A stretch of 64,000 nucleotides of DNA from a virus (IMGVR_UViG_3300045988_096785:41968-105967); one strand, 5' to 3'; positions 10,700 through 63,445 are shown, numbered from the stretch's first letter. Made by a program: numbers and translations. The notes: a model not told the origin generated them from the letters alone.

Positions 10700-11077
10700 A
10701 TGATAGTATATGATTTAAATTCAGGACACAGAGAATATCCTGGATATGATGAGATAGAAGACAGGCGAGGTGGAGGCAGAGGCAGAAGCCGTCGTTCTGA
10801 TGGGACGTACATGGAGTACGGACATGGGTTCCTTCCTCCTTATGATCATTACGGTATGCATGAGAAGATGAAGGAAATGGAAGAACGCGAAAACGAGCTG
10901 GAAGAAAGGGAAAGAAGGCTCGAAGAGCGCGAACGTCGTCATGAAATGGAGGACCGGGAATACCGGAGGATGGGTTACGAATCCTACCCGACCGATTACT
11001 ATGGAGACGACAGATACTACGGTGACGGACCTCAGATGCGTAGAGGTCGCGGACGTGGCAGAGGTCGTTCTTATTGA
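10700..11077 (+). CDS. Highly charged RG-repeat / Glu-Arg-rich protein (125 aa), possibly nucleic-acid binding
   Basis: RGGGRGRSRR and RGRGRGRGRS repeats at both ends and an EERERRLEERERRHE core. Confidence 0.5.
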   Translation: MIVYDLNSGHREYPGYDEIEDRRGGGRGRSRRSDGTYMEYGHGFLPPYDHYGMHEKMKEMEERENELEERERRLEERERRHEMEDREYRRMGYESYPTDYYGDDRYYGDGPQMRRGRGRGRGRSY

Positions 11078-30538: not shown

Positions 30539-31067
30539 ATCTCATATTCTATTAAATATATTTAAAGCTATTCATATGTTTTAATACATCCCCTCGGAGA
30601 CCTTCCGGTCTCCTTGGTAGATGTAAATCCCGTTAGGGATAAGTCAGGATTTCTCCTGTAAGTACCCATCGCCAATGTTATAAGAGGTTTTATATAATGG
30701 CAACACTGTTTCGTCAAATACACTACTCCTGTTTAATCACCATCCTTAGAGCAAGAAACTTGGATAAACATTCCTTGGTAACTATTTATTCTCAAATAAC
30801 GTAGCCTCTGTTTCAAGGCTTAGGCTAATAACCCGATCTCTGAAAGAGATGTATTAAACTTTTATAATAGAATTATATTGGGTTAATACTATTTGGGGTT
30901 ATAACACCGATCATAATGCTTGGTCAGTTCTTCTGGTTCTAAATCTTGTCCAAAATCCATGTTAAAAATATCGTAATTAGTAAAGCACTGTTCCTGCCGG
31001 CAGGAAATCTATGAATGCTGCTTTTATTTCTTCAATTAGGCCCAAGTGTAACCTTGGGCCATTGTAT
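30539..31067. other. 530-bp structured noncoding region. Contains perfect hairpins GGAGACCttccGGTCTCC (30596-30613) and GGCCCAAGtgtaacCTTGGGCC (31039-31060), and the 16-bp palindrome TTCCTGCCGGCAGGAA (30991-31006)
   Basis: No ORF of 60 aa or more. Several perfect inverted repeats. A T-tract follows the 31039-31060 hairpin on the plus strand. Confidence 0.5.
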
Positions 31068-47598: not shown

Positions 47599-47919
47599 TT
47601 AATCCCATCCTCCATCAGCATACAAAGATACGTCTTCCTCCTCTACATTCACACCCTTAAGAGCTTGCAGAAGCTTTTTCTTTGTCTCCCTACACATATT
47701 GTAACCATATCCCTTATACTTATATGATCTTTCCCATGTACTCACTGGGAAGGGGATATTTTCATCAATGACCAGCCTCTTCATATGAAGATGTTCGAAG
47801 AATTTATCATGGTATAGAAGTTTATACTCGTATCCTACTATATCAGTAGATGAGAATGGAAAATAATCATCTTCCTTTTCTTCGTATTTAGGCTCCTTAT
47901 AGTAAGCCATTTTTGTCAC
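47599..47919 (-). CDS. Hypothetical protein (106 aa)
   Basis: ORF. Confidence 0.45.
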   Translation of the reverse strand: MTKMAYYKEPKYEEKEDDYFPFSSTDIVGYEYKLLYHDKFFEHLHMKRLVIDENIPFPVSTWERSYKYKGYGYNMCRETKKKLLQALKGVNVEEEDVSLYADGGWD

Positions 47920-48128
47920 AGTAAAATCGAAGCTCCTAAGAATCTCTTCTGGCTTTCCAAACTCTGACTCTATGAACTCTATCCATACCTTTTCTCCCTC
48001 TTTCTGGAACGCACATACCTTCTATTTCTCCACTTTTAATTTTTCTCGCCGTATTTAAATCAAACGGAACAACAATTGAATTTTTCATATCTTTTCGTTT
48101 TTAATTGTTATAAAATAGGATGGGTTAC

Positions 48129-59142: not shown

Positions 59143-59320
59143 AATCTTTCGTTTTATTGTCTACAAACTTATCTATATCGTCTCTTATTCTTTTTAGCAC
59201 TCCGGCTATAATTTCCGGCATCTCTCCTTCGGTACGGTTCAGAGTTTCTATCACCCCATCAATCCTACCAATTTGACGCCATAAGAAATTGGCGTCTTTC
59301 GCATTAAATTCCCTCATCAT
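59129..59320 (-). CDS. Hypothetical protein (63 aa)
   Basis: ORF. Confidence 0.35.
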   Translation of the reverse strand: MMREFNAKDANFLWRQIGRIDGVIETLNRTEGEMPEIIAGVLKRIRDDIDKFVDNKTKDYENI

Positions 59321-59552
59321 GTCTTATTTTACAGTAAACAACTTGCTTTTTTAAGCACCAGTCTTGCGATTCTGAGAGTGAACACCGTTCGGAGTTGTTA
59401 AAAAATATACAATCTTTGCAGAACATAAGAGGATCTTCGTCGTCACCAACTACTTTGACATCATACTCTATACCATACAATTTTAATCTAAATACATCTC
59501 CTGTTTTTTTAGAAGACAAATCCATGTTCGGACCGAATGTTATTACTTCCAT
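59304..59552 (-). CDS. Small Cys-rich protein, paralog family member (82 aa)
   Basis: DLS..G..F..K..G...V.AKVV...C..CIFF.....C.LS.S...C pattern shared with 60739..61008 and 34237..34446. Confidence 0.5.
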   Translation of the reverse strand: MEVITFGPNMDLSSKKTGDVFRLKLYGIEYDVKVVGDDEDPLMFCKDCIFFNNSERCSLSESQDWCLKKQVVYCKIRHDEGI

Positions 59553-59572
59553 ATAATTATGTTTTATTGTTT

Positions 59573-59668
59573 GTGAGATGCCCAGAATCGAACCAGGACC
59601 GGCACATACATACCGGCACGCCGCGCCATCCCTCTATGATACACAAATAGACATGCCTATTCTCACGA
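59573..59668 (-). tRNA. Possible tRNA or tRNA-like element (T-arm GGTTCGATTCT plus acceptor-like CATCTCAC). Non-canonical by manual folding
   Basis: The plus strand shows CCCAGAATCGAACCAGG, the reverse complement of a T-arm. An intergenic GTGAGA...TCTCAC pairing spans about 94 nt. Confidence 0.3.
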
Positions 59669-59725
59669 ACCGACATGCCAAAACCCAAAACTTAATTTGA
59701 TGAATAAAATAGATTAACAAAAATA

Positions 59726-60040
59726 CTATTCTAATTCTTTTATAATATCTTTCACAATATTCAGCCTTACCTCCTTCGTTTCTGGACTAAGACAACCAAA
59801 CCACCCATAAAACGTTCTTGTTTCCTCTGGTTCTGTGGCCATACTTATCTTCTCTTCCAATTCCGGGAAATATATTCTCACCATTTCGTCTGAACGAAAC
59901 TCATAGATATTTTTATGTGTTTTGAAATACATAAACACTACATTTCTTAACGCAACACATATGTATTCCCCATCCTCTAACCTATCAATCATCTCATATA
60001 CCTTTTTCCATATGAATAATCGCTCTTCTTTTGTAAACAT
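59726..60040 (-). CDS. Hypothetical protein (104 aa)
   Basis: ORF. Confidence 0.45.
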   Translation of the reverse strand: MFTKEERLFIWKKVYEMIDRLEDGEYICVALRNVVFMYFKTHKNIYEFRSDEMVRIYFPELEEKISMATEPEETRTFYGWFGCLSPETKEVRLNIVKDIIKELE

Positions 60041-60054
60041 ATCCTTCTTTATTT

Positions 60055-60471
60055 TTATGGTATTATTTGACTGTATGCAGACTTTTCCATGTACACAATA
60101 TTATGCTCCTGTCCAAATATCTTCTTTGCCGCCTCTTTCTTTATCGCACAATATCTCCCTGTACGATACGGATTCTTTTGATCTGATCCATCCTCGACTT
60201 CGATAATAAAACAGCCTCCGTCATCTATTATCTTTTTGCAATTGTCACATACTCCGCCCGTGCATATATGATGCGGTGCCTGCCCTTTGATATTATTCCC
60301 TAATAAAGCAATGCCCATCTCTTCGCCACATATCATGCAGACTTCTATAGACGGATTCAATCCGTGTTCTGGATGTAATGTAACACCATCTTTCATTTTC
60401 TTTCCTCCTTTGTTTTTAATGTTGTGTGAGATCGCCGGAATCGAACCGACTTGCTGCACCATGAATCCCAT
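60055..60471 (-). CDS. Zinc-ribbon hypothetical protein (the real start is probably the internal Met MKDGVTL)
   Basis: CMICG...CDNC motifs. Confidence 0.4.
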   Translation of the reverse strand: MGFMVQQVGSIPAISHNIKNKGGKKMKDGVTLHPEHGLNPSIEVCMICGEEMGIALLGNNIKGQAPHHICTGGVCDNCKKIIDDGGCFIIEVEDGSDQKNPYRTGRYCAIKKEAAKKIFGQEHNIVYMEKSAYSQIIP

Positions 60472-60497
60472 AAATCAAATGCTCCGATCTTCGCAGA
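60428..60497 (-). tRNA. Possible tRNA or tRNA-like element (T-arm GTCGG-TTCGATT-CCGGC plus acceptor-like GATCTCAC)
   Basis: The plus strand shows GCCGGAATCGAACCGAC. The T-arm is good, but a full cloverleaf was not found by hand. Confidence 0.3.
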
Positions 60498-60738
60498 TGG
60501 GAGCATTCTGTCTAAAGCATAAGAAAATTAATGAAGAAAATTTTTCTCACTTACGCCATAGCATCTAAAATAGCTATCAACACTATTTCTATGACAAGCA
60601 TAATAGAGAATGTCTTAAATATCTTTTTCATATCTCCTCCTTTTTTATCTGTTCTTTTCACGTTCCACAATAAACTGTTCCGGCTCTGCTCCGAACTACG
60701 TTCCACCTACAACCGCAGGCCTTAGCCCAAGGCGCCGC

Positions 60739-61008
60739 CTACTCCCCCTCTATGGCAGCCTGTTCGTACCTACAAATCCAATCTCCATCTACACAACTAT
60801 CACTACGCGATAATAAACATTTATCCTTATAACAATCATAAAAAATACACCTATCACAACTGTAATCCTTAACGTCTACACAGCTAACTACCTTAGCATA
60901 TACTATACCATCACTGCCTTCTATTCCTTTCACCCCAAAAATAGAACCTTCTACTTCTTTACTCAAATCTAAATCGGGTGCAAAATCATATACGTTCATA
61001 CCATCCAT
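60739..61008 (-). CDS. Small Cys-rich protein, paralog family member (89 aa)
   Basis: SCVDV...CDRCIFYDCYKDKC pattern. TGTTTAACAATTAAAAT sits immediately upstream of the ATG. Confidence 0.5.
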   Translation of the reverse strand: MDGMNVYDFAPDLDLSKEVEGSIFGVKGIEGSDGIVYAKVVSCVDVKDYSCDRCIFYDCYKDKCLLSRSDSCVDGDWICRYEQAAIEGE

Positions 61009-61069
61009 ATTTTAATTGTTAAACATTCCGATTACCACTAATCTATAGAATATAGTTTTCAACTCTCAA

Positions 61070-61186
61070 CCTATTGAATTTTGTAGAATAAACTCACATT
61101 TTGCTGTTTTAAAGCACTGTAATCCTTAATTTTGTGGGAAAACCCTACATAATGTTGTTTTAAAACGCTTATCTATTGAATTTTGT
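61070..61186. repeat. Direct repeat CTATTGAATTTTGT x2 (61070-61083 and 61173-61186)
   Basis: Exact 14-mer duplicated 103 bp apart in a noncoding region. Confidence 0.6.
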
Positions 61187-61252
61187 TGGTAGGGAGTGCC
61201 CTCCCCCTCCCTCTCTCCAACTCCCGCTAATCCTCCGGCTTTCCGCATAGAA

Positions 61253-61386
61253 CCCACGCCCTACCGCCTCACTACCGGCATACGGAGAGCGCTACAAGCT
61301 TATACTCTGGCATGGAGTATGGGGGATTTGGAGATAATATCATTCCATAGAGAGAATAGAGAGCCTTCAGCCCACGCCCTACCGCC
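61253..61386. repeat. Direct repeat CCCACGCCCTACCGCCT x2 (61253-61269 and 61370-61386) in a C-rich (minus-strand G-rich) island
   Basis: Exact 17-mer duplicated 117 bp apart. The minus strand at 61195-61215 carries GGGAGGGGGAGGG G-runs. Confidence 0.6.
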
Positions 61387-61720
61387 TGCTCCTCCTATCA
61401 AGATAGATATTTAAACCTATAATCAAAGCCAACAAAGAAAAGCAAAAGACCATTACAATATTATACTGATCCGGTCCGTACTCCAACATAGAGCGAATAC
61501 CAACCGACAGAAAATAAAGATCAGCTACTAATAAAAACCACCACATAGAATAAAAAAAATACAATAAGTATGTCCAAAAATACGGGGATTATAAAACCTA
61601 ACTAATTGATAATCAAGCATACCTCATTTTTAAGAAAAATACAATAAGCCTAATTTTCAATCCATAGAGACGAAAAAGGCGGCATCCGACACCCTATTTT
61701 GGGTCAGAAAACCGCCTCAA

Positions 61721-61817
61721 GTTTCGTTTTAGACCAATTTTAACGACATGATATAGACAAAATACCGGCATTATATCCGAATGGCCTTATTTTTGTTTCG
61801 TTTTAGACCAATTTTGT
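61721..61817. repeat. Direct repeat GTTTCGTTTTAGACCAATTTT x2 (61721-61741 and 61797-61817)
   Basis: Exact 21-mer duplicated 76 bp apart in a noncoding region. Confidence 0.65.
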
Positions 61818-61916
61818 CCACGTCCGCCGTTCACTCTCAGAATACCTACCCGTAAATAGAAAGAGTAGGATACGAAAATAGGGCTACTCCGATATTCGGA
61901 ACAACCCTATTCCTGT

Positions 61917-62123
61917 TTAAATACTGTTTATGTTTTCTTTCACGTATGTTCGTGATGTATGGACTTTGCGTTTGCATTTGTCCTTTCCCGTATCGGCATG
62001 ATACGCTTCTTTAAGATCACGATACAACATAAATTCCCGATACGCTCTTTTCCGCTTTTCTTTAGCTTCTTTCCTGGACAGACCGCGAACGTCTACCATG
62101 TGAGATTTAAATTTCCTTTCCAT
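61917..62123 (-). CDS. Small basic hypothetical protein (68 aa)
   Basis: ORF. Lys/Arg-rich. Confidence 0.35.
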   Translation of the reverse strand: MERKFKSHMVDVRGLSRKEAKEKRKRAYREFMLYRDLKEAYHADTGKDKCKRKVHTSRTYVKENINSI

Positions 62124-62145
62124 TTTCTTTATGCTTTAATTATGA

Positions 62146-62367
62146 TTAACCCCAGCGGTTAAGTGCTTCAATATAGAAACCTTCCGCCTCTTTGTACTCA
62201 CTTTCGCTCAATGTTTCCACCGTCTCGATATAGTTACGCAATGTTATTTTTACGCAACTGTTTTTAGATTTATTGAACGCTTCAGTTAAAGCGTTGATCA
62301 TTGCTTTCTTTCCCATGTTATTATATTGTTTATAATTTAGAGGTTGCTCCGGAATCGAACCGGACAC
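62146..62367 (-). CDS. Small hypothetical protein (73 aa)
   Basis: ORF. Confidence 0.35.
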   Translation of the reverse strand: MSGSIPEQPLNYKQYNNMGKKAMINALTEAFNKSKNSCVKITLRNYIETVETLSESEYKEAEGFYIEALNRWG

Positions 62368-62407
62368 GCATTCCTATCCTATAGAGATTTTATGCTACAA
62401 CCAACAG
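62341..62407 (-). tRNA. Possible tRNA or tRNA-like element (T-arm TCCGG-TTCGATT-CCGGA plus acceptor-like GCAACCT)
   Basis: The plus strand shows CTCCGGAATCGAACCGGA. A 6 of 7 acceptor pairing to TGGTTGT exists, but the element is only about 63 nt. Confidence 0.3.
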
Positions 62408-62899
62408 CCCGTAATTAGTACGTAGTTCTTGCGTACAGGCCCGTACTATGTTTTTATTATATTTTCCGTCTGCTACACTATTTCGCCACACATAACGGCA
62501 TAGTGTCCTTGCGTTTTGATACGGCACGTCCCTACATGGTAGGCTACATGTTTATACCCTGTAATTTAATCTACAGCCTTGTCCTATTTTACGTGTAGGC
62601 AAGTAAGACACGTTTCGGTCTGGAGATAAACCGCGTACAACGGTATGTTTTCCAAACTGTACTAACATACCTAACATAACTACATTTATCCAATGTAATA
62701 CATGCAGTAATACCAGCCCTTTAATTGCCAACGGCAAGGGCAAAGGTATATCTATCTCCAATATGTAAAATAACTCTCTGTTTTGTCAGCTTCAGTCTAA
62801 AGCATACGCGGGACGTGCACCCACTGACAACGGCGTACAAGCGCGTTTAACGGTACGCGTCAAACCTTTGGAGAGCTTAACGGCGCTCTCCGTGCCTTG
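62408..62899. other. 490-bp GC-richer noncoding region with recurring GTACG/CGTAC and AACGG motifs
   Basis: No convincing ORF (62552..62761 is likely spurious). AACGG occurs 6 or more times. Several CGTAC-containing short palindromes. Confidence 0.4.
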
Positions 62900-63445
62900 T
62901 TACTGCTGGTTGCTTTCATGTGCGAGGTATTCACTTACACACTTTGCCACAGTGCGAATAGAATAAGATTTGATCTTAACAGCCACATAAGTAGCTTTAT
63001 ACTCGTCGTTTTCTTTTATCAACCATTTAGTGCTTTTTTTGGTCTCCAATGATTCGGCAGTAGTAAAACCAAATGATTTATATTCGCTACCGTAAACCAC
63101 ATTCTCAGCGCACCAATCAGCCGTTTTAGCCTCAACGCCTTTCTCTTTGTCTGCATTGGTATCCTTATACACTTTAGAGTATAAAGCAAATTTAACAAAT
63201 GTATCGTCAACTTTCGGTAACATTTGGCTACACACAGCTACCAGGCGTTTTTTATCCTTGGCGAGGGCTGCAACCTTTACGGCGTATTCTGCCGGTATTT
63301 CCAAGGCCTTGCAAATAGACTTAAGATCAGCTCCATTAGCAAATAAAGCGTTGTATAACTTTACGGCACCTACCAAATTTGCAGCGTTTTCTTTGATAAC
63401 AGCATTCTGTAGTTTGTTTACATTTTTTTTCGTAATCATATCCAA
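62900..63445 (-). CDS. Hypothetical protein, first gene of the leftward module (the real ATG is probably at 63439; the track start is TTG)
   Basis: ORF preceded by TGTTTAACAATTAAAAT about 10 nt upstream. Confidence 0.5.
   Translation of the reverse strand: MDMITKKNVNKLQNAVIKENAANLVGAVKLYNALFANGADLKSICKALEIPAEYAVKVAALAKDKKRLVAVCSQMLPKVDDTFVKFALYSKVYKDTNADKEKGVEAKTADWCAENVVYGSEYKSFGFTTAESLETKKSTKWLIKENDEYKATYVAVKIKSYSIRTVAKCVSEYLAHESNQQ

What the first reader, a model, noticed from the sequence alone, without database searches (positions are those of the whole stretch)
59573..62407. Three tRNA-like T-arm/acceptor elements that do not fold into canonical tRNAs
CCCAGAATCGAACCAGG (59581), GCCGGAATCGAACCGAC (60441) and CTCCGGAATCGAACCGGA (62349) are reverse complements of the canonical tRNA T-arm (GGTTCGATTCC). 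Each is followed by an acceptor-like stretch. All are intergenic and co-oriented with the minus-strand genes. By manual folding the 5' acceptor and anticodon arms are imperfect and the lengths are odd (about 63, 66 and 94 nt). They could be real but divergent phage tRNAs (possibly with introns or suppressor types), tRNA-derived fragments, or tRNA-mimic RNA elements (primers, processing signals).
Basis: seen in the sequence. Interest (0 to 1): 0.55.

Follow-up and report, generated by a model that had tools for sequence, protein, structure and literature searches.

The report
tRNA top-half mimics in gut phage
Three conserved RNA elements in a crAss-like gut phage keep only the acceptor/T-arm half of a tRNA, one of them capping a new ~530-nt highly structured RNA, and they most likely recruit the host's tRNA-processing enzymes rather than decode codons.

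Summary
Three canonical T-arms (5-bp stem, loop UUCGAUU) lie on the minus strand at 59581-59597, 60434-60450 and 62348-62364. Each runs straight into a 6-7-bp acceptor-like stem.

They are not tRNAs. ARAGORN and Rfam find none, and the D-arm and anticodon arm are missing. What survives is the roughly 12-bp acceptor/T-stem stack plus a GG-containing linker. The cores are 61, 45 and 64 nt.

The window is a crAss-like (probably Epsilon-group) phage, about 95% identical to csAssE-Sib. More than 100 IMG/VR relatives carry all three elements. The T-loops are invariant, substitutions preserve pairing, and T-arm diversity is at or below that of codon positions 1-2 of neighbouring genes.

The third element is the 3' end of a ~529-nt noncoding RNA (62340-62868). 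That RNA has 163 predicted pairs, 24 with compensatory changes, and no Rfam match.

Real tRNAs of this phage family sit in the same layout: GNRA-capped hairpin, then tRNA, then about 20 nt, then ATG.

Best reading (about 45%): these are tRNA-derived punctuation modules cut by host RNase P and RNase Z. Rivals are trans-acting tRNA mimics, decaying pseudogenes and recombination sites. No transcript data were available to decide between them.

The parts
59573..59633 (-). Element 1 core (61 nt). Acceptor 5' strand AGGGAUG (59633-59627). Invariant linker GCGCGGCGUG. Dispensable hairpin CCGGUA-UGUAUG-UGCCGG (59616-59599). T-arm CCUGG-UUCGAUU-CUGGG (59597-59581, loop 59592-59586). Acceptor 3' strand CAUCUCA (59580-59574). 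Discriminator C at 59573.
   Evidence: Sequence. Pair counts on 46 unique relatives: 97.7% paired, with mostly one-sided changes. Rfam aligns it as acceptor + long variable arm + T-arm with the D and anticodon arms deleted (13.8 bits). L074 keeps only this core after an upstream deletion, and two relatives lack the hairpin. Diversity (pi) is 0.026 in the T-arm against 0.053-0.078 at codon positions of the adjacent gene.
59650..59679 (-). Leader hairpin before element 1: GGCAUGUC-GG-UUC-GUGA-GAA-UA-GGCAUGUC (GNRA tetraloop), followed by UAUUU.
   Evidence: Minimum-free-energy fold. Variants keep the 8-bp outer stem. The same design sits before real tRNA-Met in csAssE-Sib and before paralog E5.
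59680..59725 (-). A/T-rich block between the upstream stop codon and the hairpin. It includes a Bacteroidota -7-like box, TATTTTTG (59725-59718). It is a candidate promoter.
   Evidence: Nearly invariant across 76 relatives (pi 0.001). -7 box match. Function is inferred, not shown.
59553..59572 (-). A-rich trailer of element 1 (AAACAAUAAAACAUAAUUAU), running to the ATG at 59552.
   Evidence: 38-nt similarity with the element 2 trailer, 76%. Homology between relatives breaks about 12-15 nt after the discriminator.
60426..60470 (-). Element 2 core (45 nt). Acceptor UGGGAUU (60470-60464) paired with GAUCUCA (60433-60427), with G3.U70. 13-nt linker CAUGGUGCAGCAA. T-arm GUCGG-UUCGAUU-CCGGC (60450-60434, loop 60445-60439). 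Discriminator C at 60426.
   Evidence: On 53 unique relatives, 99.7-100% of cells are paired. L112 changes three acceptor positions and all three keep pairing with the near strand. GUCAG/CUGGC is a compensated T-stem variant. Pi is 0.029 for the core and 0.017 for the T-arm, against 0.045-0.136 in the adjacent gene.
60478..60507 (-). Hairpin before element 2: AAUGCUCC-C-AUCU-GCGA-AGAU-C-GGAGCAUU (GNRA tetraloop), followed by UGAUUUA.
   Evidence: Three pairs show compensatory changes (A-U to G-C, U-A to C-G, C-G to A-U). 0 of 500 shuffles reach the observed covariation.
60397..60425 (-). Trailer of element 2 (ACACAACAUUAAAAACAAAGGAGGAAAGAAA), running to the ATG at 60396.
   Evidence: Pi 0.016. 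Alternative downstream genes begin after ...CAUUAAAA in relatives.
62340..62403 (-). Element 3 core (64 nt). Acceptor UGGUUGU (62403-62397) paired with GCAACCU (62347-62341). Then A. Interrupted arm GCAU-AAA-AUCU-CUAUA-GGAU-AGGA-AUGC. Then GUG. T-arm UCCGG-UUCGAUU-CCGGA (62364-62348, loop 62359-62353). Discriminator C at 62340.
   Evidence: RNAalifold consensus. Helices 23-26: T-stem C-G to U-A in 4 sequences, and the upper arm stem has C-G, U-G and U-A. L090 and L114 change acceptor positions 66 and 72 and gain a perfect 7-bp stem. Pi is 0.031 in the T-arm and 0 in the T-loop.
62404..62868 (-). Body of a large structured noncoding RNA, about 465 nt. With element 3 it totals about 529 nt (62340-62868).
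   Evidence: No conserved ORF and no 3-base periodicity in 74 relatives. 163 pairs in 26 helices are 97.8% paired. 24 pairs and 186 cells change on both sides, against 13.9 and 59 in shuffles (0 of 500) and 2-8 pairs in slid controls. Many invariant G.U pairs fix the minus strand as the RNA strand. No Rfam family matches. All 103 true homologues found carry the tRNA-like module 455-464 nt downstream of the 5' marker.
62317..62339 (-). Trailer of element 3 (UAAAUUAUAAACAAUAUAAUAAC), running to the ATG at 62316. Together with the discriminator it resembles the trailer of the real phage tRNA-Cys (CCUCUAAA).

Best explanation
**What they are.** The three elements are tRNA-derived 'top-half' modules. 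Each keeps a 6-7-bp acceptor stem stacked on a 5-bp T-stem with a canonical T-loop. Each also has a short GG-containing linker that could mimic the D-loop at the tRNA elbow. The D-arm and anticodon arm are gone.

**Where they sit.** They lie inside minus-strand transcripts, in a cassette of this form: conserved A/T-rich block, then GNRA-capped hairpin, then tRNA-like module, then a 20-29-nt A-rich trailer, then a start codon. Real tRNAs of this phage family use the same layout.

**Proposed mechanism (inferred, not shown).** Host RNase P cuts at the 5' side of the module. RNase Z or an equivalent cuts after the discriminator, as they would on a real pre-tRNA. This separates the upstream RNA from the downstream mRNA without ending transcription. 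For element 3 the upstream RNA is a ~465-nt ornate noncoding RNA; for elements 1 and 2 it is a hairpin leader. A 45-64-nt tRNA-like RNA is released in the process.

**Shown:** the structure, its conservation and its position. **Inferred:** transcription as one unit and the cleavages.
For: 1. The canonical T-arm plus adjacent acceptor is retained in all three elements, and in a fourth paralog (E5) in a relative. The sequences are completely different but the stack is the same length: 92% of cells are paired, 8 of 12 pairs change on both sides, and the covariation score is 0.58 against 0.26 in shuffles (0 of 500). This is the part of a tRNA that RNase P, RNase Z and CCA-adding enzyme recognise (established knowledge).
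2. Constraint sits on exactly that part. The T-loop is invariant across the E1-E3 copies first collected from the fetched relatives. The only changes seen later are at loop positions 59-60, in two homologues of element 3. T-arm pi is 0.017-0.031, against 0.032-0.063 at codon positions 1-2 and 0.078-0.136 at position 3 of adjacent genes. Linker parts and the element 1 hairpin vary or can be deleted.
3. Position. Each module lies 20-29 nt before a start codon and just after a stable hairpin.
4. In csAssE-Sib, real tRNAs sit in the same cassette: a GUGA-capped hairpin plus UUUUAA 6 nt before tRNA-Met, and tRNA-Cys ending 22 nt before the next ATG. Transcripts carrying both a tRNA and an mRNA, which must be processed, are therefore plausible in this family.
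5. Every true homologue of the large RNA carries the module at a fixed distance of 455-464 nt, as expected if the module defines that RNA's 3' end.
Against: - There are no transcript or cleavage data of any kind.
- Single-sequence folding energies of the cores are no better than shuffles (z about 0). The element 1 T-stem is not even in the minimum-free-energy fold.
- Within element 1 alone, covariation is not significant.
- Pair 1:72 is a mismatch in elements 1 and 3.
- Invariant linker segments (GCGCGGCGUG; CAUGGUG) and the conserved trailers are more than a bare processing signal needs. They hint at an additional or different function.
- The nearly invariant promoter-like block upstream of element 1 suggests it starts its own transcript, so 'punctuation between genes' may be too simple.
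- The relatives are close (about 90-97% identity), so many changes are inherited events rather than independent ones.
Confidence: 0.45

Rival explanations
1. The modules are stable, trans-acting tRNA mimics. After release and possibly CCA addition, they bind or titrate proteins that recognise the tRNA acceptor/T-arm or elbow. Candidates are modification enzymes, EF-Tu, AlaRS via G3.U70 in elements 1 and 2, acceptor-end-targeting immune toxins, or the phage family's own RNA-handling proteins. For element 3, the module would tether such a factor to the large RNA.
For: - Linker segments containing GG are invariant, while neighbouring linker positions vary.
- Elements 1 and 2 keep G2-C71, G3.U70 and G4-C69 in 44 of 46 and 52 of 53 unique variants. 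These match the known alanine identity set (established knowledge).
- The relative csAssE-Sib encodes Ro60/Rsr with a YrlA-like RNA, a CCA-adding/poly(A)-polymerase-like nucleotidyltransferase and Pnkp. The family therefore invests in tRNA-like RNAs and RNA-end chemistry.
- The large RNA and its module are always linked. GOLLD RNAs likewise sometimes carry covalently linked tRNAs (PMC12286853).
Against: - No CCA is encoded.
- The discriminator is C, not A.
- G3.U70 is lost in a few variants (A3-U70, G3-C70) and is absent from element 3 and E5.
- The nucleotidyltransferase gene is truncated in this very window; only residues 74-220 remain.
- rsr lies about 75 kb away in csAssE-Sib and has its own tRNA-like partners.
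- There is no evidence of RNA accumulation.
Confidence: 0.25
2. They are decaying tRNA pseudogenes, left by internal deletions in former phage tRNA genes. They would be carried along without function and look conserved only because the relatives are close.
For: - ARAGORN and Rfam are negative.
- Folding z-scores are about 0.
- Pair 1:72 is mismatched.
- The element 1 hairpin is deleted in two relatives and its upstream part in another.
- Within element 1, changes are mostly one-sided and not significant against shuffles.
- The cassette layout shared with real tRNAs is also what descent from tRNA genes predicts.
Against: - Four paralog families have all lost the same two arms and all kept the same roughly 12-bp stack and T-loop.
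- T-arm diversity is at or below that of codon positions 1-2 and 3-8 times below position 3 of adjacent genes.
- Compensatory double changes occur (UCCGG/CCGGA to UCUGG/CCAGA; GUCGG/CCGGC to GUCAG/CUGGC; the L112 triple and L090 double acceptor changes).
- The elements persist while flanking genes come and go.
Confidence: 0.12
3. The elements act at the DNA level, as recombination or attachment sequences (tRNA-like att sites or cassette junctions) that mediate exchange of the small downstream genes.
For: - Homology between relatives breaks 12-15 nt past elements 1 and 2.
- Different genes follow each element in different relatives. After element 1 there are 71 MRIY.., 28 MEVITF.. and 2 MMGEF... 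After element 2 there are 46 MLKEEF.. and 58 MK[DN]... After element 3 there are 65 M[EG]KK.. and 15 MERKF...
- tRNA 3' halves are classic integration targets (established knowledge).
Against: - A 20-nt exact search for the element 3 T-arm/acceptor in one genome each of 185,579 species gave a single hit, in a Thermoleophilaceae MAG, where ARAGORN calls no tRNA. It is therefore not a copy of a host tRNA end.
- No integrase is annotated in csAssE-Sib.
- Flanking proteins have no recognisable domains.
- G.U pairs and compensatory changes are strand-specific, which points to RNA-level selection.
- Junctions next to a conserved block are expected anyway when everything around it is variable.
Confidence: 0.08
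4. They are genuine decoding tRNAs of unusual shape: armless, intron-containing or suppressor types.
For: Element 3 has three arms, like D-armless mitochondrial tRNAs. Crassvirales are known to encode suppressor tRNAs (PMC7886860, abstract as I recall it).
Against: - No 7-nt anticodon loop exists in any of them.
- The element 3 arm loop is 5 nt and varies among near-identical phages.
- Element 2 has only a 13-nt linker.
- ARAGORN and Rfam tRNA models call real tRNAs in the relative at 43-53 bits, but nothing here.
- The far-upstream partners tested as split or intron 5' halves are not supported.
Confidence: 0.02

Closest known systems
tRNA-like processing signals: plant-mitochondrial t-elements and the MALAT1/MEN-beta mascRNA-type tRNA-like structures
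   Same: A reduced tRNA mimic that keeps the acceptor and T-arm. It is embedded in a longer transcript, at the junction between a long RNA and what follows. It is used (there, experimentally) by RNase P and RNase Z to create RNA ends. Element 3 at the 3' end of a large noncoding RNA matches the MALAT1-mascRNA layout.
   Different: Those systems are eukaryotic or organellar. Here the host would be a bacterium and the carrier a DNA phage. Cleavage has not been shown. The D and anticodon arms are absent altogether rather than degenerate. The modules come with a conserved GNRA-capped hairpin and a conserved trailer.
GOLLD and ROOL large ornate phage/prophage RNAs (Rfam RF03087 and the GOLLD family; PMC5737381, PMC12286853)
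   Same: For the RNA at 62340-62868: about 0.5 kb, many covariation-supported helices and multistem junctions, phage-encoded, and physically associated with tRNA(-like) sequence. GOLLD sometimes carries covalently linked tRNAs, and both classes lie near tRNA islands.
   Different: No sequence or structure match to either Rfam model at E<=10 in a 581-nt search. The linked module is a truncated tRNA mimic, not a tRNA. So far it is found only in one clade of crAss-like gut phages. Oligomerisation is unknown.
YrlA (bacterial Y RNA-like tRNA mimics bound by Ro60/Rsr; Rfam RF02553; PMC4201824)
   Same: A noncoding tRNA mimic with a canonical T-arm, known from bacteria and phages. The related phage csAssE-Sib encodes Ro60.
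   Different: YrlA is circularly permuted, with a closed acceptor and a Ro-binding stem, and is encoded next to rsr. Elements 1-3 have the normal strand order and no Ro-binding stem. They give no RF02553 hit, and in csAssE-Sib they lie about 75 kb from rsr. The rsr-adjacent locus there does give a sub-threshold YrlA hit (28.5 bits).
tmRNA tRNA-like domain
   Same: Acceptor plus T-arm without an anticodon arm. G3.U70 in elements 1 and 2. The best Rfam local alignments of the T-arms are to tmRNA models (6-9 bits).
   Different: No tag reading frame or pseudoknots lie between the acceptor strands. ARAGORN finds no tmRNA. The near acceptor strand is supported comparatively, not a 5'-end/3'-end closure.
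Phage T4 species 1 and 2 stable RNAs in the tRNA cluster (from my own knowledge)
   Same: Small phage RNAs of unknown function, encoded among tRNA genes, with tRNA-like termini and matured by the tRNA-processing machinery.
   Different: No sequence relation was tested. The T4 RNAs are 120-140 nt and lie inside a tRNA cluster. Here the elements sit in front of small protein genes, and one is fused to a 0.5-kb RNA.

Membership tests
canonical tRNA | Called by tRNA finders or covariance models (ARAGORN; Rfam RF00005 gathering score 29 bits) | tested here: not met
   ARAGORN finds 0 genes in the window. No RF00005 hit at E<=10. As a control, real tRNAs in the relative score 43-53 bits.
canonical tRNA | Cloverleaf with a D-arm and an anticodon arm carrying a 7-nt loop | tested here: not met
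   Between the acceptor 5' strand and the T-arm there are 29 nt (element 1: 10-nt linker, 18-nt hairpin and 1 nt), 13 nt (element 2) and 32 nt (element 3: one arm with a 5-nt variable loop).
canonical tRNA | T-arm with a 5-bp stem and loop UUCRANN | tested here: met
   The first five loop bases, UUCGA, are unchanged in every copy seen. Only positions 59-60 vary, in two distant variants.
canonical tRNA | 7-bp acceptor stem continuous with the T-stem (12-bp stack) | tested here: met
   12 contiguous pairs with 92% of cells paired. Pair 1:72 is mismatched in elements 1 and 3, so the stack there is effectively 11 bp.
tmRNA | tRNA-like domain formed by the 5' and 3' ends, enclosing a tag ORF and pseudoknots; G3.U70 | tested here: not met
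   ARAGORN finds no tmRNA. Rfam tmRNA models align only the 15-17-nt T-arm at 6-9 bits. G3.U70 is present in elements 1 and 2 only. Far-strand closures are not supported.
YrlA / bacterial Y RNA | Match to RF02553; permuted tRNA-like domain plus Ro-binding stem; encoded beside rsr | tested here: not met
   No RF02553 hit on 59300-62700. Strand order is normal. In csAssE-Sib, rsr is at 73.1-74.7 kb while the elements are at 148.6, 149.8 and 0.5 kb. The rsr-adjacent locus scores 28.5 bits.
tRNA-like processing elements (t-elements, mascRNA type) | Reduced tRNA mimic retaining the acceptor and T-arm, placed at a junction within a longer transcript | tested here: met
   Anatomy and positions. The layout is shared with real tRNAs of the family.
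tRNA-like processing elements (t-elements, mascRNA type) | Cleaved by RNase P at the 5' side and RNase Z at the 3' side | not testable with these tools
   No transcriptome or biochemical data are available.
GOLLD / ROOL | Match to the Rfam covariance models | tested here: not met
   cmscan of 62320-62900 at E<=10 returns only a weak RT-14 hit (22.9 bits, E 0.78).
phage attP / copy of a host tRNA 3' end | Sequence identity with the 3' end of a host tRNA gene; integrase nearby | tested here: not met
   The 20-mer GGTTCGATTCCGGAGCAACC gives one hit in 185,579 species genomes, with no tRNA called there. Only element 3 was tested this way. No integrase is annotated in csAssE-Sib. Flanking ORFs have no domains.
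viral 3' tRNA-like structures (TYMV/BMV type) | 3'-terminal, CCA-ended, aminoacylatable | not testable with these tools
   No CCA is encoded. RNA ends are unknown.

The most novel reading that the evidence does not exclude
This clade of abundant human-gut crAss-like phages has evolved a small family of tRNA 'top-half' mimics that do more than mark cleavage sites. Once released and CCA-tailed, they would engage host factors that read the acceptor/T-arm. Examples are alanylation through G3.U70 in elements 1 and 2, or acting as decoys for immune toxins that modify tRNA 3' ends. One mimic would be permanently fused to a previously undescribed ~0.5-kb ornate RNA. That RNA would form a new class alongside GOLLD and ROOL, with the mimic as its handle for tRNA-binding machinery.
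Probability: 0.2. Interest if true: 0.85.

Novelty: new variant of a known kind. Interest (0 to 1): 0.62.

Why it matters
Crassvirales are among the most abundant viruses of the human gut, yet I found no description of their noncoding RNAs.

If the modules are RNase P/Z punctuation marks, this would be a bacterial-virus counterpart of the MALAT1-mascRNA and plant-mitochondrial t-element strategy. It would explain how these phages, which lack their own RNA polymerase (Epsilon group, PMC7886860), mature long early transcripts.

The ~529-nt RNA is independently valuable. It is a new, strongly covariation-supported large RNA with a built-in tRNA-like handle. That makes the long-noted but unexplained association between large ornate phage RNAs and tRNAs directly testable in a defined system.

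Annotation pipelines currently call spurious 'hypothetical proteins' over these elements. In csAssE-Sib, the CDS at 148558-148716 overlaps element 1.

Tried and rejected
1. **Far-upstream closing stems.** I tested GUGAGA/UCUCAC for elements 1 and 2, and AAAGGUU/AACCUCU (5' end of the large RNA) for element 3. These would make long tRNA-like or tmRNA-like molecules, or a tRNA with a giant intron. RNAalifold proposed them, but variants contradict them. L090 loses GUGAGA with no change in the partner. L112's three changes fit only the near strand. L090/L114's two changes perfect the near stem and weaken the far one. L074 deletes the far partner. The conserved GUGAGRAUA is better explained as the top of a GUGA-capped hairpin.
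2. **A third pairing of element 2** (linker GUG.AG with CUCAC) appears in the minimum-free-energy fold. It is broken in several variants.
3. **Protein coding in 62340-62868.** There is no conserved ORF and no codon periodicity. The 95-aa CDS annotated in csAssE-Sib is interrupted in the window.
4. **Known RNA families.** Six Rfam searches covered the window, including narrow, permissive ones; a seventh was a control on the related phage. Nothing matches beyond T-arm fragments.
5. **Bacteroidota promoter consensus.** TTTG-N18-22-TANNTTTG is not enriched, and no full match lies directly upstream of any element. Only a -7-like box precedes element 1.
6. **Sigma-70 and terminator scans** gave nothing decisive.
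7. **Flanking proteins.** No Pfam hits. One PHROG of unknown function.
8. **A cross-family covariance model was not built.** MAFFT shifted the 5' strands (A7). Instead I counted pairs on a gap-free alignment with the linkers removed. That alignment is an artificial construct and is stated as such (A8).
9. **My first diversity comparison was confounded** by relatives carrying a different downstream gene. I redid it on matched sets.
10. **Literature searches** for csAssE-Sib, crAss-like with tRNA-like, and Crassvirales with Ro60 found nothing relevant.

Full report
**Observation.** GGTTCGATTC(C/T) occurs on the minus strand at 59584-59594, 60437-60447 and 62351-62361. These are the only matches with at most one mismatch in the 64-kb window. 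Shuffles expect 0.75, and one shuffle in 100 reaches three. Each motif is embedded in a perfect 5-bp stem with the 7-nt loop UUCGAUU, and 7 nt of acceptor-like sequence follow directly. All three lie between minus-strand ORFs, 20-29 nt upstream of the start codons at 59552, 60396 and 62316.

**They are not tRNAs.** ARAGORN finds no tRNA or tmRNA in the window. At gathering thresholds Rfam finds only an unrelated HEARO RNA. A permissive scan of 59300-62700 gives no tRNA-clan hit at E<=10. Scans of about 100-400 nt around each element align only the T-arm (6-9 bits, to tmRNA models). The one exception is element 1, which gets a 13.8-bit tRNA-Sec-like alignment: acceptor, long variable arm and T-arm are matched, and the D and anticodon arms are deleted. 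As a control, the same tools call six real tRNAs in the related phage at 43-53 bits.

**Anatomy (minus strand).**
- Element 1 (59633-59573): AGGGAUG, then GCGCGGCGUG, then hairpin CCGGUA-UGUAUG-UGCCGG, then U, then CCUGG-UUCGAUU-CUGGG, then CAUCUCA, then C.
- Element 2 (60470-60426): UGGGAUU, then CAUGGUGCAGCAA, then GUCGG-UUCGAUU-CCGGC, then GAUCUCA, then C.
- Element 3 (62403-62340): UGGUUGU, then A, then arm GCAU-AAA-AUCU-CUAUA-GGAU-AGGA-AUGC, then GUG, then UCCGG-UUCGAUU-CCGGA, then GCAACCU, then C.

Each keeps the acceptor stem stacked on the T-arm (7+5 pairs, with pair 1:72 mismatched in elements 1 and 3). Each replaces the D and anticodon arms with a 13-32-nt linker that always contains an invariant GG. 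A long hairpin capped by a GNRA tetraloop, followed by a U-rich stretch, precedes elements 1 and 2. These are 59679-59650 (GUGA loop) and 60507-60478 (GCGA loop).

**Source and relatives.** The window is about 95% identical and collinear with phage csAssE-Sib (OR575929.1, 151 kb, human gut). That record carries crAss-type muzzle and ring proteins, and its size and its lack of an RNA polymerase block fit the Epsilon group of crAss-like phages (PMC7886860). All three elements are conserved in it, and none is annotated as RNA. Exact-pattern scans of IMG/VR returned 65 loci for element 3 and at least 119 for elements 1 and 2, mostly from contigs of 80-172 kb.

**Comparative support.**
- *Element 2.* Across 53 unique variants, 24 pairs are 99.5% paired. 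The leader hairpin has three compensatory pairs (0 of 500 shuffles). The acceptor and T-stems change only in pair-preserving ways.
  - One variant (L112) alters three acceptor positions, and all three keep pairing with the near strand.
  - Another shows GUCGG/CCGGC changed to GUCAG/CUGGC.
- *Element 3.*
  - The T-stem C-G becomes U-A in four variants.
  - The upper arm stem shows C-G, U-G and U-A.
  - Two variants change positions 66 and 72 and thereby gain a perfect 7-bp acceptor.
- *Element 1.* It is 97.7% paired, but its changes are mostly one-sided and not significant against shuffles.
  - Two relatives lack the inner hairpin.
  - One relative (L074) retains only the core after an upstream deletion.
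- *Fourth paralog (E5).* A 172-kb relative carries a fourth family with the same design but a different sequence: GGGACG...GAGCGG-UUCGAUU-CCGCUC-CGUCCC, preceded by a GUGA-capped hairpin and UUUU.
- *Cross-family count.* I removed the linkers and aligned the 27 distinct top halves of the four families. This is an artificial construct (A8). The 12-pair stack is 92% paired, 8 of 12 pairs change on both sides, and the covariation score is 0.58 against 0.26 in shuffles (0 of 500).
- *Nucleotide diversity.* The constraint sits on the same part:

| Region | pi |
|---|---|
| T-arms | 0.017-0.031 |
| T-loop, element 3 | 0 |
| Adjacent genes, codon positions 1-2 | 0.032-0.063 |
| Adjacent genes, codon position 3 | 0.078-0.136 |
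| Element 2 variable linker | 0.066 |
| Element 1 inner hairpin | 0.097 |

- *Caveat.* Single-sequence folding energies are no better than shuffles (z about 0). The relatives are also close, so counts overstate the number of independent events.

**The large RNA.** The 580 nt between the ORF ending at 62900 and the ATG at 62316 are noncoding. No ORF is shared by more than 20 of 74 relatives, and variable sites show no 3-base periodicity. From a conserved AAGGUU at about 62868 to element 3, the sequence folds into 26 helices on 73 unique relatives.
- 163 pairs are 97.8% paired.
- 24 pairs and 186 cells change on both sides, against 13.9 and 59 in shuffles (0 of 500) and 2-8 pairs when partners are slid.
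- Whole helices are swapped between relatives: GCCC..GGGC to UAUC..GAUA, CUGUAG..UUACAG to CUACGG..UCGUAG, and UUGCC..GGACAA to UGAUC..GGAUCG.
- Invariant G.U pairs fix the minus strand as the RNA strand.
- The body evolves almost as fast as synonymous sites (pi 0.075 against 0.087) while keeping its pairing.
- No Rfam family matches.
- All 103 true homologues in the fetched data carry the tRNA-like module 455-464 nt downstream of a 5' marker. Two of them have T-loops UUCGAGU and UUCGAGC, which differ only at the normally variable positions 59-60.

**Context.**
- In csAssE-Sib the real tRNA cluster has a canonical Bacteroidota promoter (TTTG-N20-TAACTTTG). Next comes a GUGA-capped hairpin plus UUUUAA, 6 nt before tRNA-Met. 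Another hairpin precedes tRNA-Arg, and tRNA-Cys ends 22 nt before the next ATG. Its trailer (CCUCUAAA) resembles that of element 3.
- The elements therefore occupy the positional niche of real tRNAs, and tRNA-mRNA co-transcripts appear to be normal in this family.
- The 46-nt A/T-rich block upstream of the element 1 hairpin is almost invariant (pi 0.001) and contains a -7-like box. Element 1 may therefore head its own transcript.
- Gene content changes exactly at the 3' edge of each element among relatives.
- The CCA-adding/poly(A)-polymerase-like gene of csAssE-Sib is truncated in this window.
- rsr (Ro60) and its YrlA-like neighbours lie elsewhere in csAssE-Sib.

**Mechanism.** I commit to the following as most likely, at about 0.45. 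These are tRNA-derived modules that have been pared down to what RNase P, RNase Z and CCA-adding enzyme recognise. They are used to cut long phage transcripts. They would release the hairpin leader or the large RNA upstream, free the downstream mRNA with a short A-rich leader, and liberate a small tRNA-like RNA.

The structure, conservation, position and analogy with the family's real tRNAs are shown. Co-transcription and every cleavage step are inferred.

The main rival (0.25) is that the released or tethered mimics have their own trans function. This would explain the invariant linker segments, the conserved trailers and the G2-C71/G3.U70/G4-C69 set in elements 1 and 2. The other rivals are:
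- pseudogenes (0.12), disfavoured by selective retention of the same half in four families and by compensatory changes;
- DNA-level recombination sites (0.08), with no host tRNA identity, no integrase, and strand-specific pairing;
- true tRNAs (0.02).

**Comparison and novelty.** Functionally the closest known systems are plant-mitochondrial t-elements and the MALAT1-mascRNA tRNA-like 3'-end signal (from my own knowledge). For the large RNA, the closest are GOLLD and ROOL, which are phage-borne, lie near tRNA islands and sometimes carry linked tRNAs (PMC5737381, PMC12286853). Membership in the tRNA, tmRNA, YrlA, GOLLD and ROOL families, and the attP interpretation, were each tested and not met. 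Targeted full-text searches found no description of these elements. I rate this a new variant of a known kind, with a new large RNA attached.

Noticed in passing
window 30658-30902 (-): Full-length HEARO (IscB-associated omega-RNA-like) match, 95 bits against a gathering score of 83. It lies in a ~360-bp insertion absent from csAssE-Sib, and no IscB-sized ORF sits next to it. It looks like a solitary HEARO RNA in a phage replication-gene region.
   Followed up: partly
window 61009-61916: About 900 nt without a credible ORF. It is rich in exact direct repeats: 21 nt twice at 61721 and 61795, 17 nt twice at 61253 and 61371, and several 14-42-nt families. The ends of the linear csAssE-Sib record map to 61835/61836. 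It may be an origin, a terminus or a regulatory region.
   Followed up: partly
window 60640-60738 (-) and 60551-60631 (-): A conserved GC-rich segment follows a Cys-rich gene and shares CAUAGAGGG..GGCGGCG with the 5' flank of element 1. After it comes a conserved 26-aa hydrophobic ORF (MKKIFKTFSIMLVIEIVLIAILDAMA) with a strong AAGGAGG site, which is unusual for a Bacteroidota phage.
   Followed up: partly
window 59304-59552 (-) and 60739-61008 (-): The small Cys-rich proteins flanking the elements are paralogs (36% identity over 67 aa, E 8e-07). The region therefore contains a tandem duplication.
   Followed up: partly
window 47599-48042 (-): The CCA-adding/poly(A)-polymerase-like nucleotidyltransferase of csAssE-Sib is truncated here. 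Only residues 74-220 are encoded (90% identity), and the catalytic N-terminus is missing.
   Followed up: partly
L164 17560-17980 (csAssE-Sib 72.5-73.0 kb, upstream of rsr): Three tRNA or tRNA-like units precede the phage Ro60/Rsr gene and share the leader GUGGUGAUGG..UACUUCG. One is a sub-threshold YrlA-like match (28.5 bits, E 7e-4) overlapping a 22.5-bit tRNA-like match. These are candidate phage Y RNAs in a crAss-like phage.
   Followed up: partly
L094 about 10950-11060 (IMGVR_UViG_3300029745_000341, 172 kb): A fourth paralogous top-half element (E5) with its own GUGA-capped hairpin and U-tract, about 30 nt upstream of an ATG. It is absent from the window.
   Followed up: partly
window 60506-60521 and 62791-62806 (minus-strand RNA): A 16-nt motif, UAUGCUUUAGAC(A/U)GAA, is shared (15 of 16) between the leader of element 2 and the 5' part of the large RNA. 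A roughly 10-nt complementarity also links 60693-60710 and 62411-62428. Significance is unknown.
   Followed up: no
window 59553-59572, 60397-60425, 62317-62339 and relatives: Gene gain and loss among relatives occurs immediately 3' of each element. For example, 71 relatives have the MRIY gene directly after element 1, where the window has two extra genes. The conserved RNA modules therefore mark mosaic junctions.
   Followed up: partly
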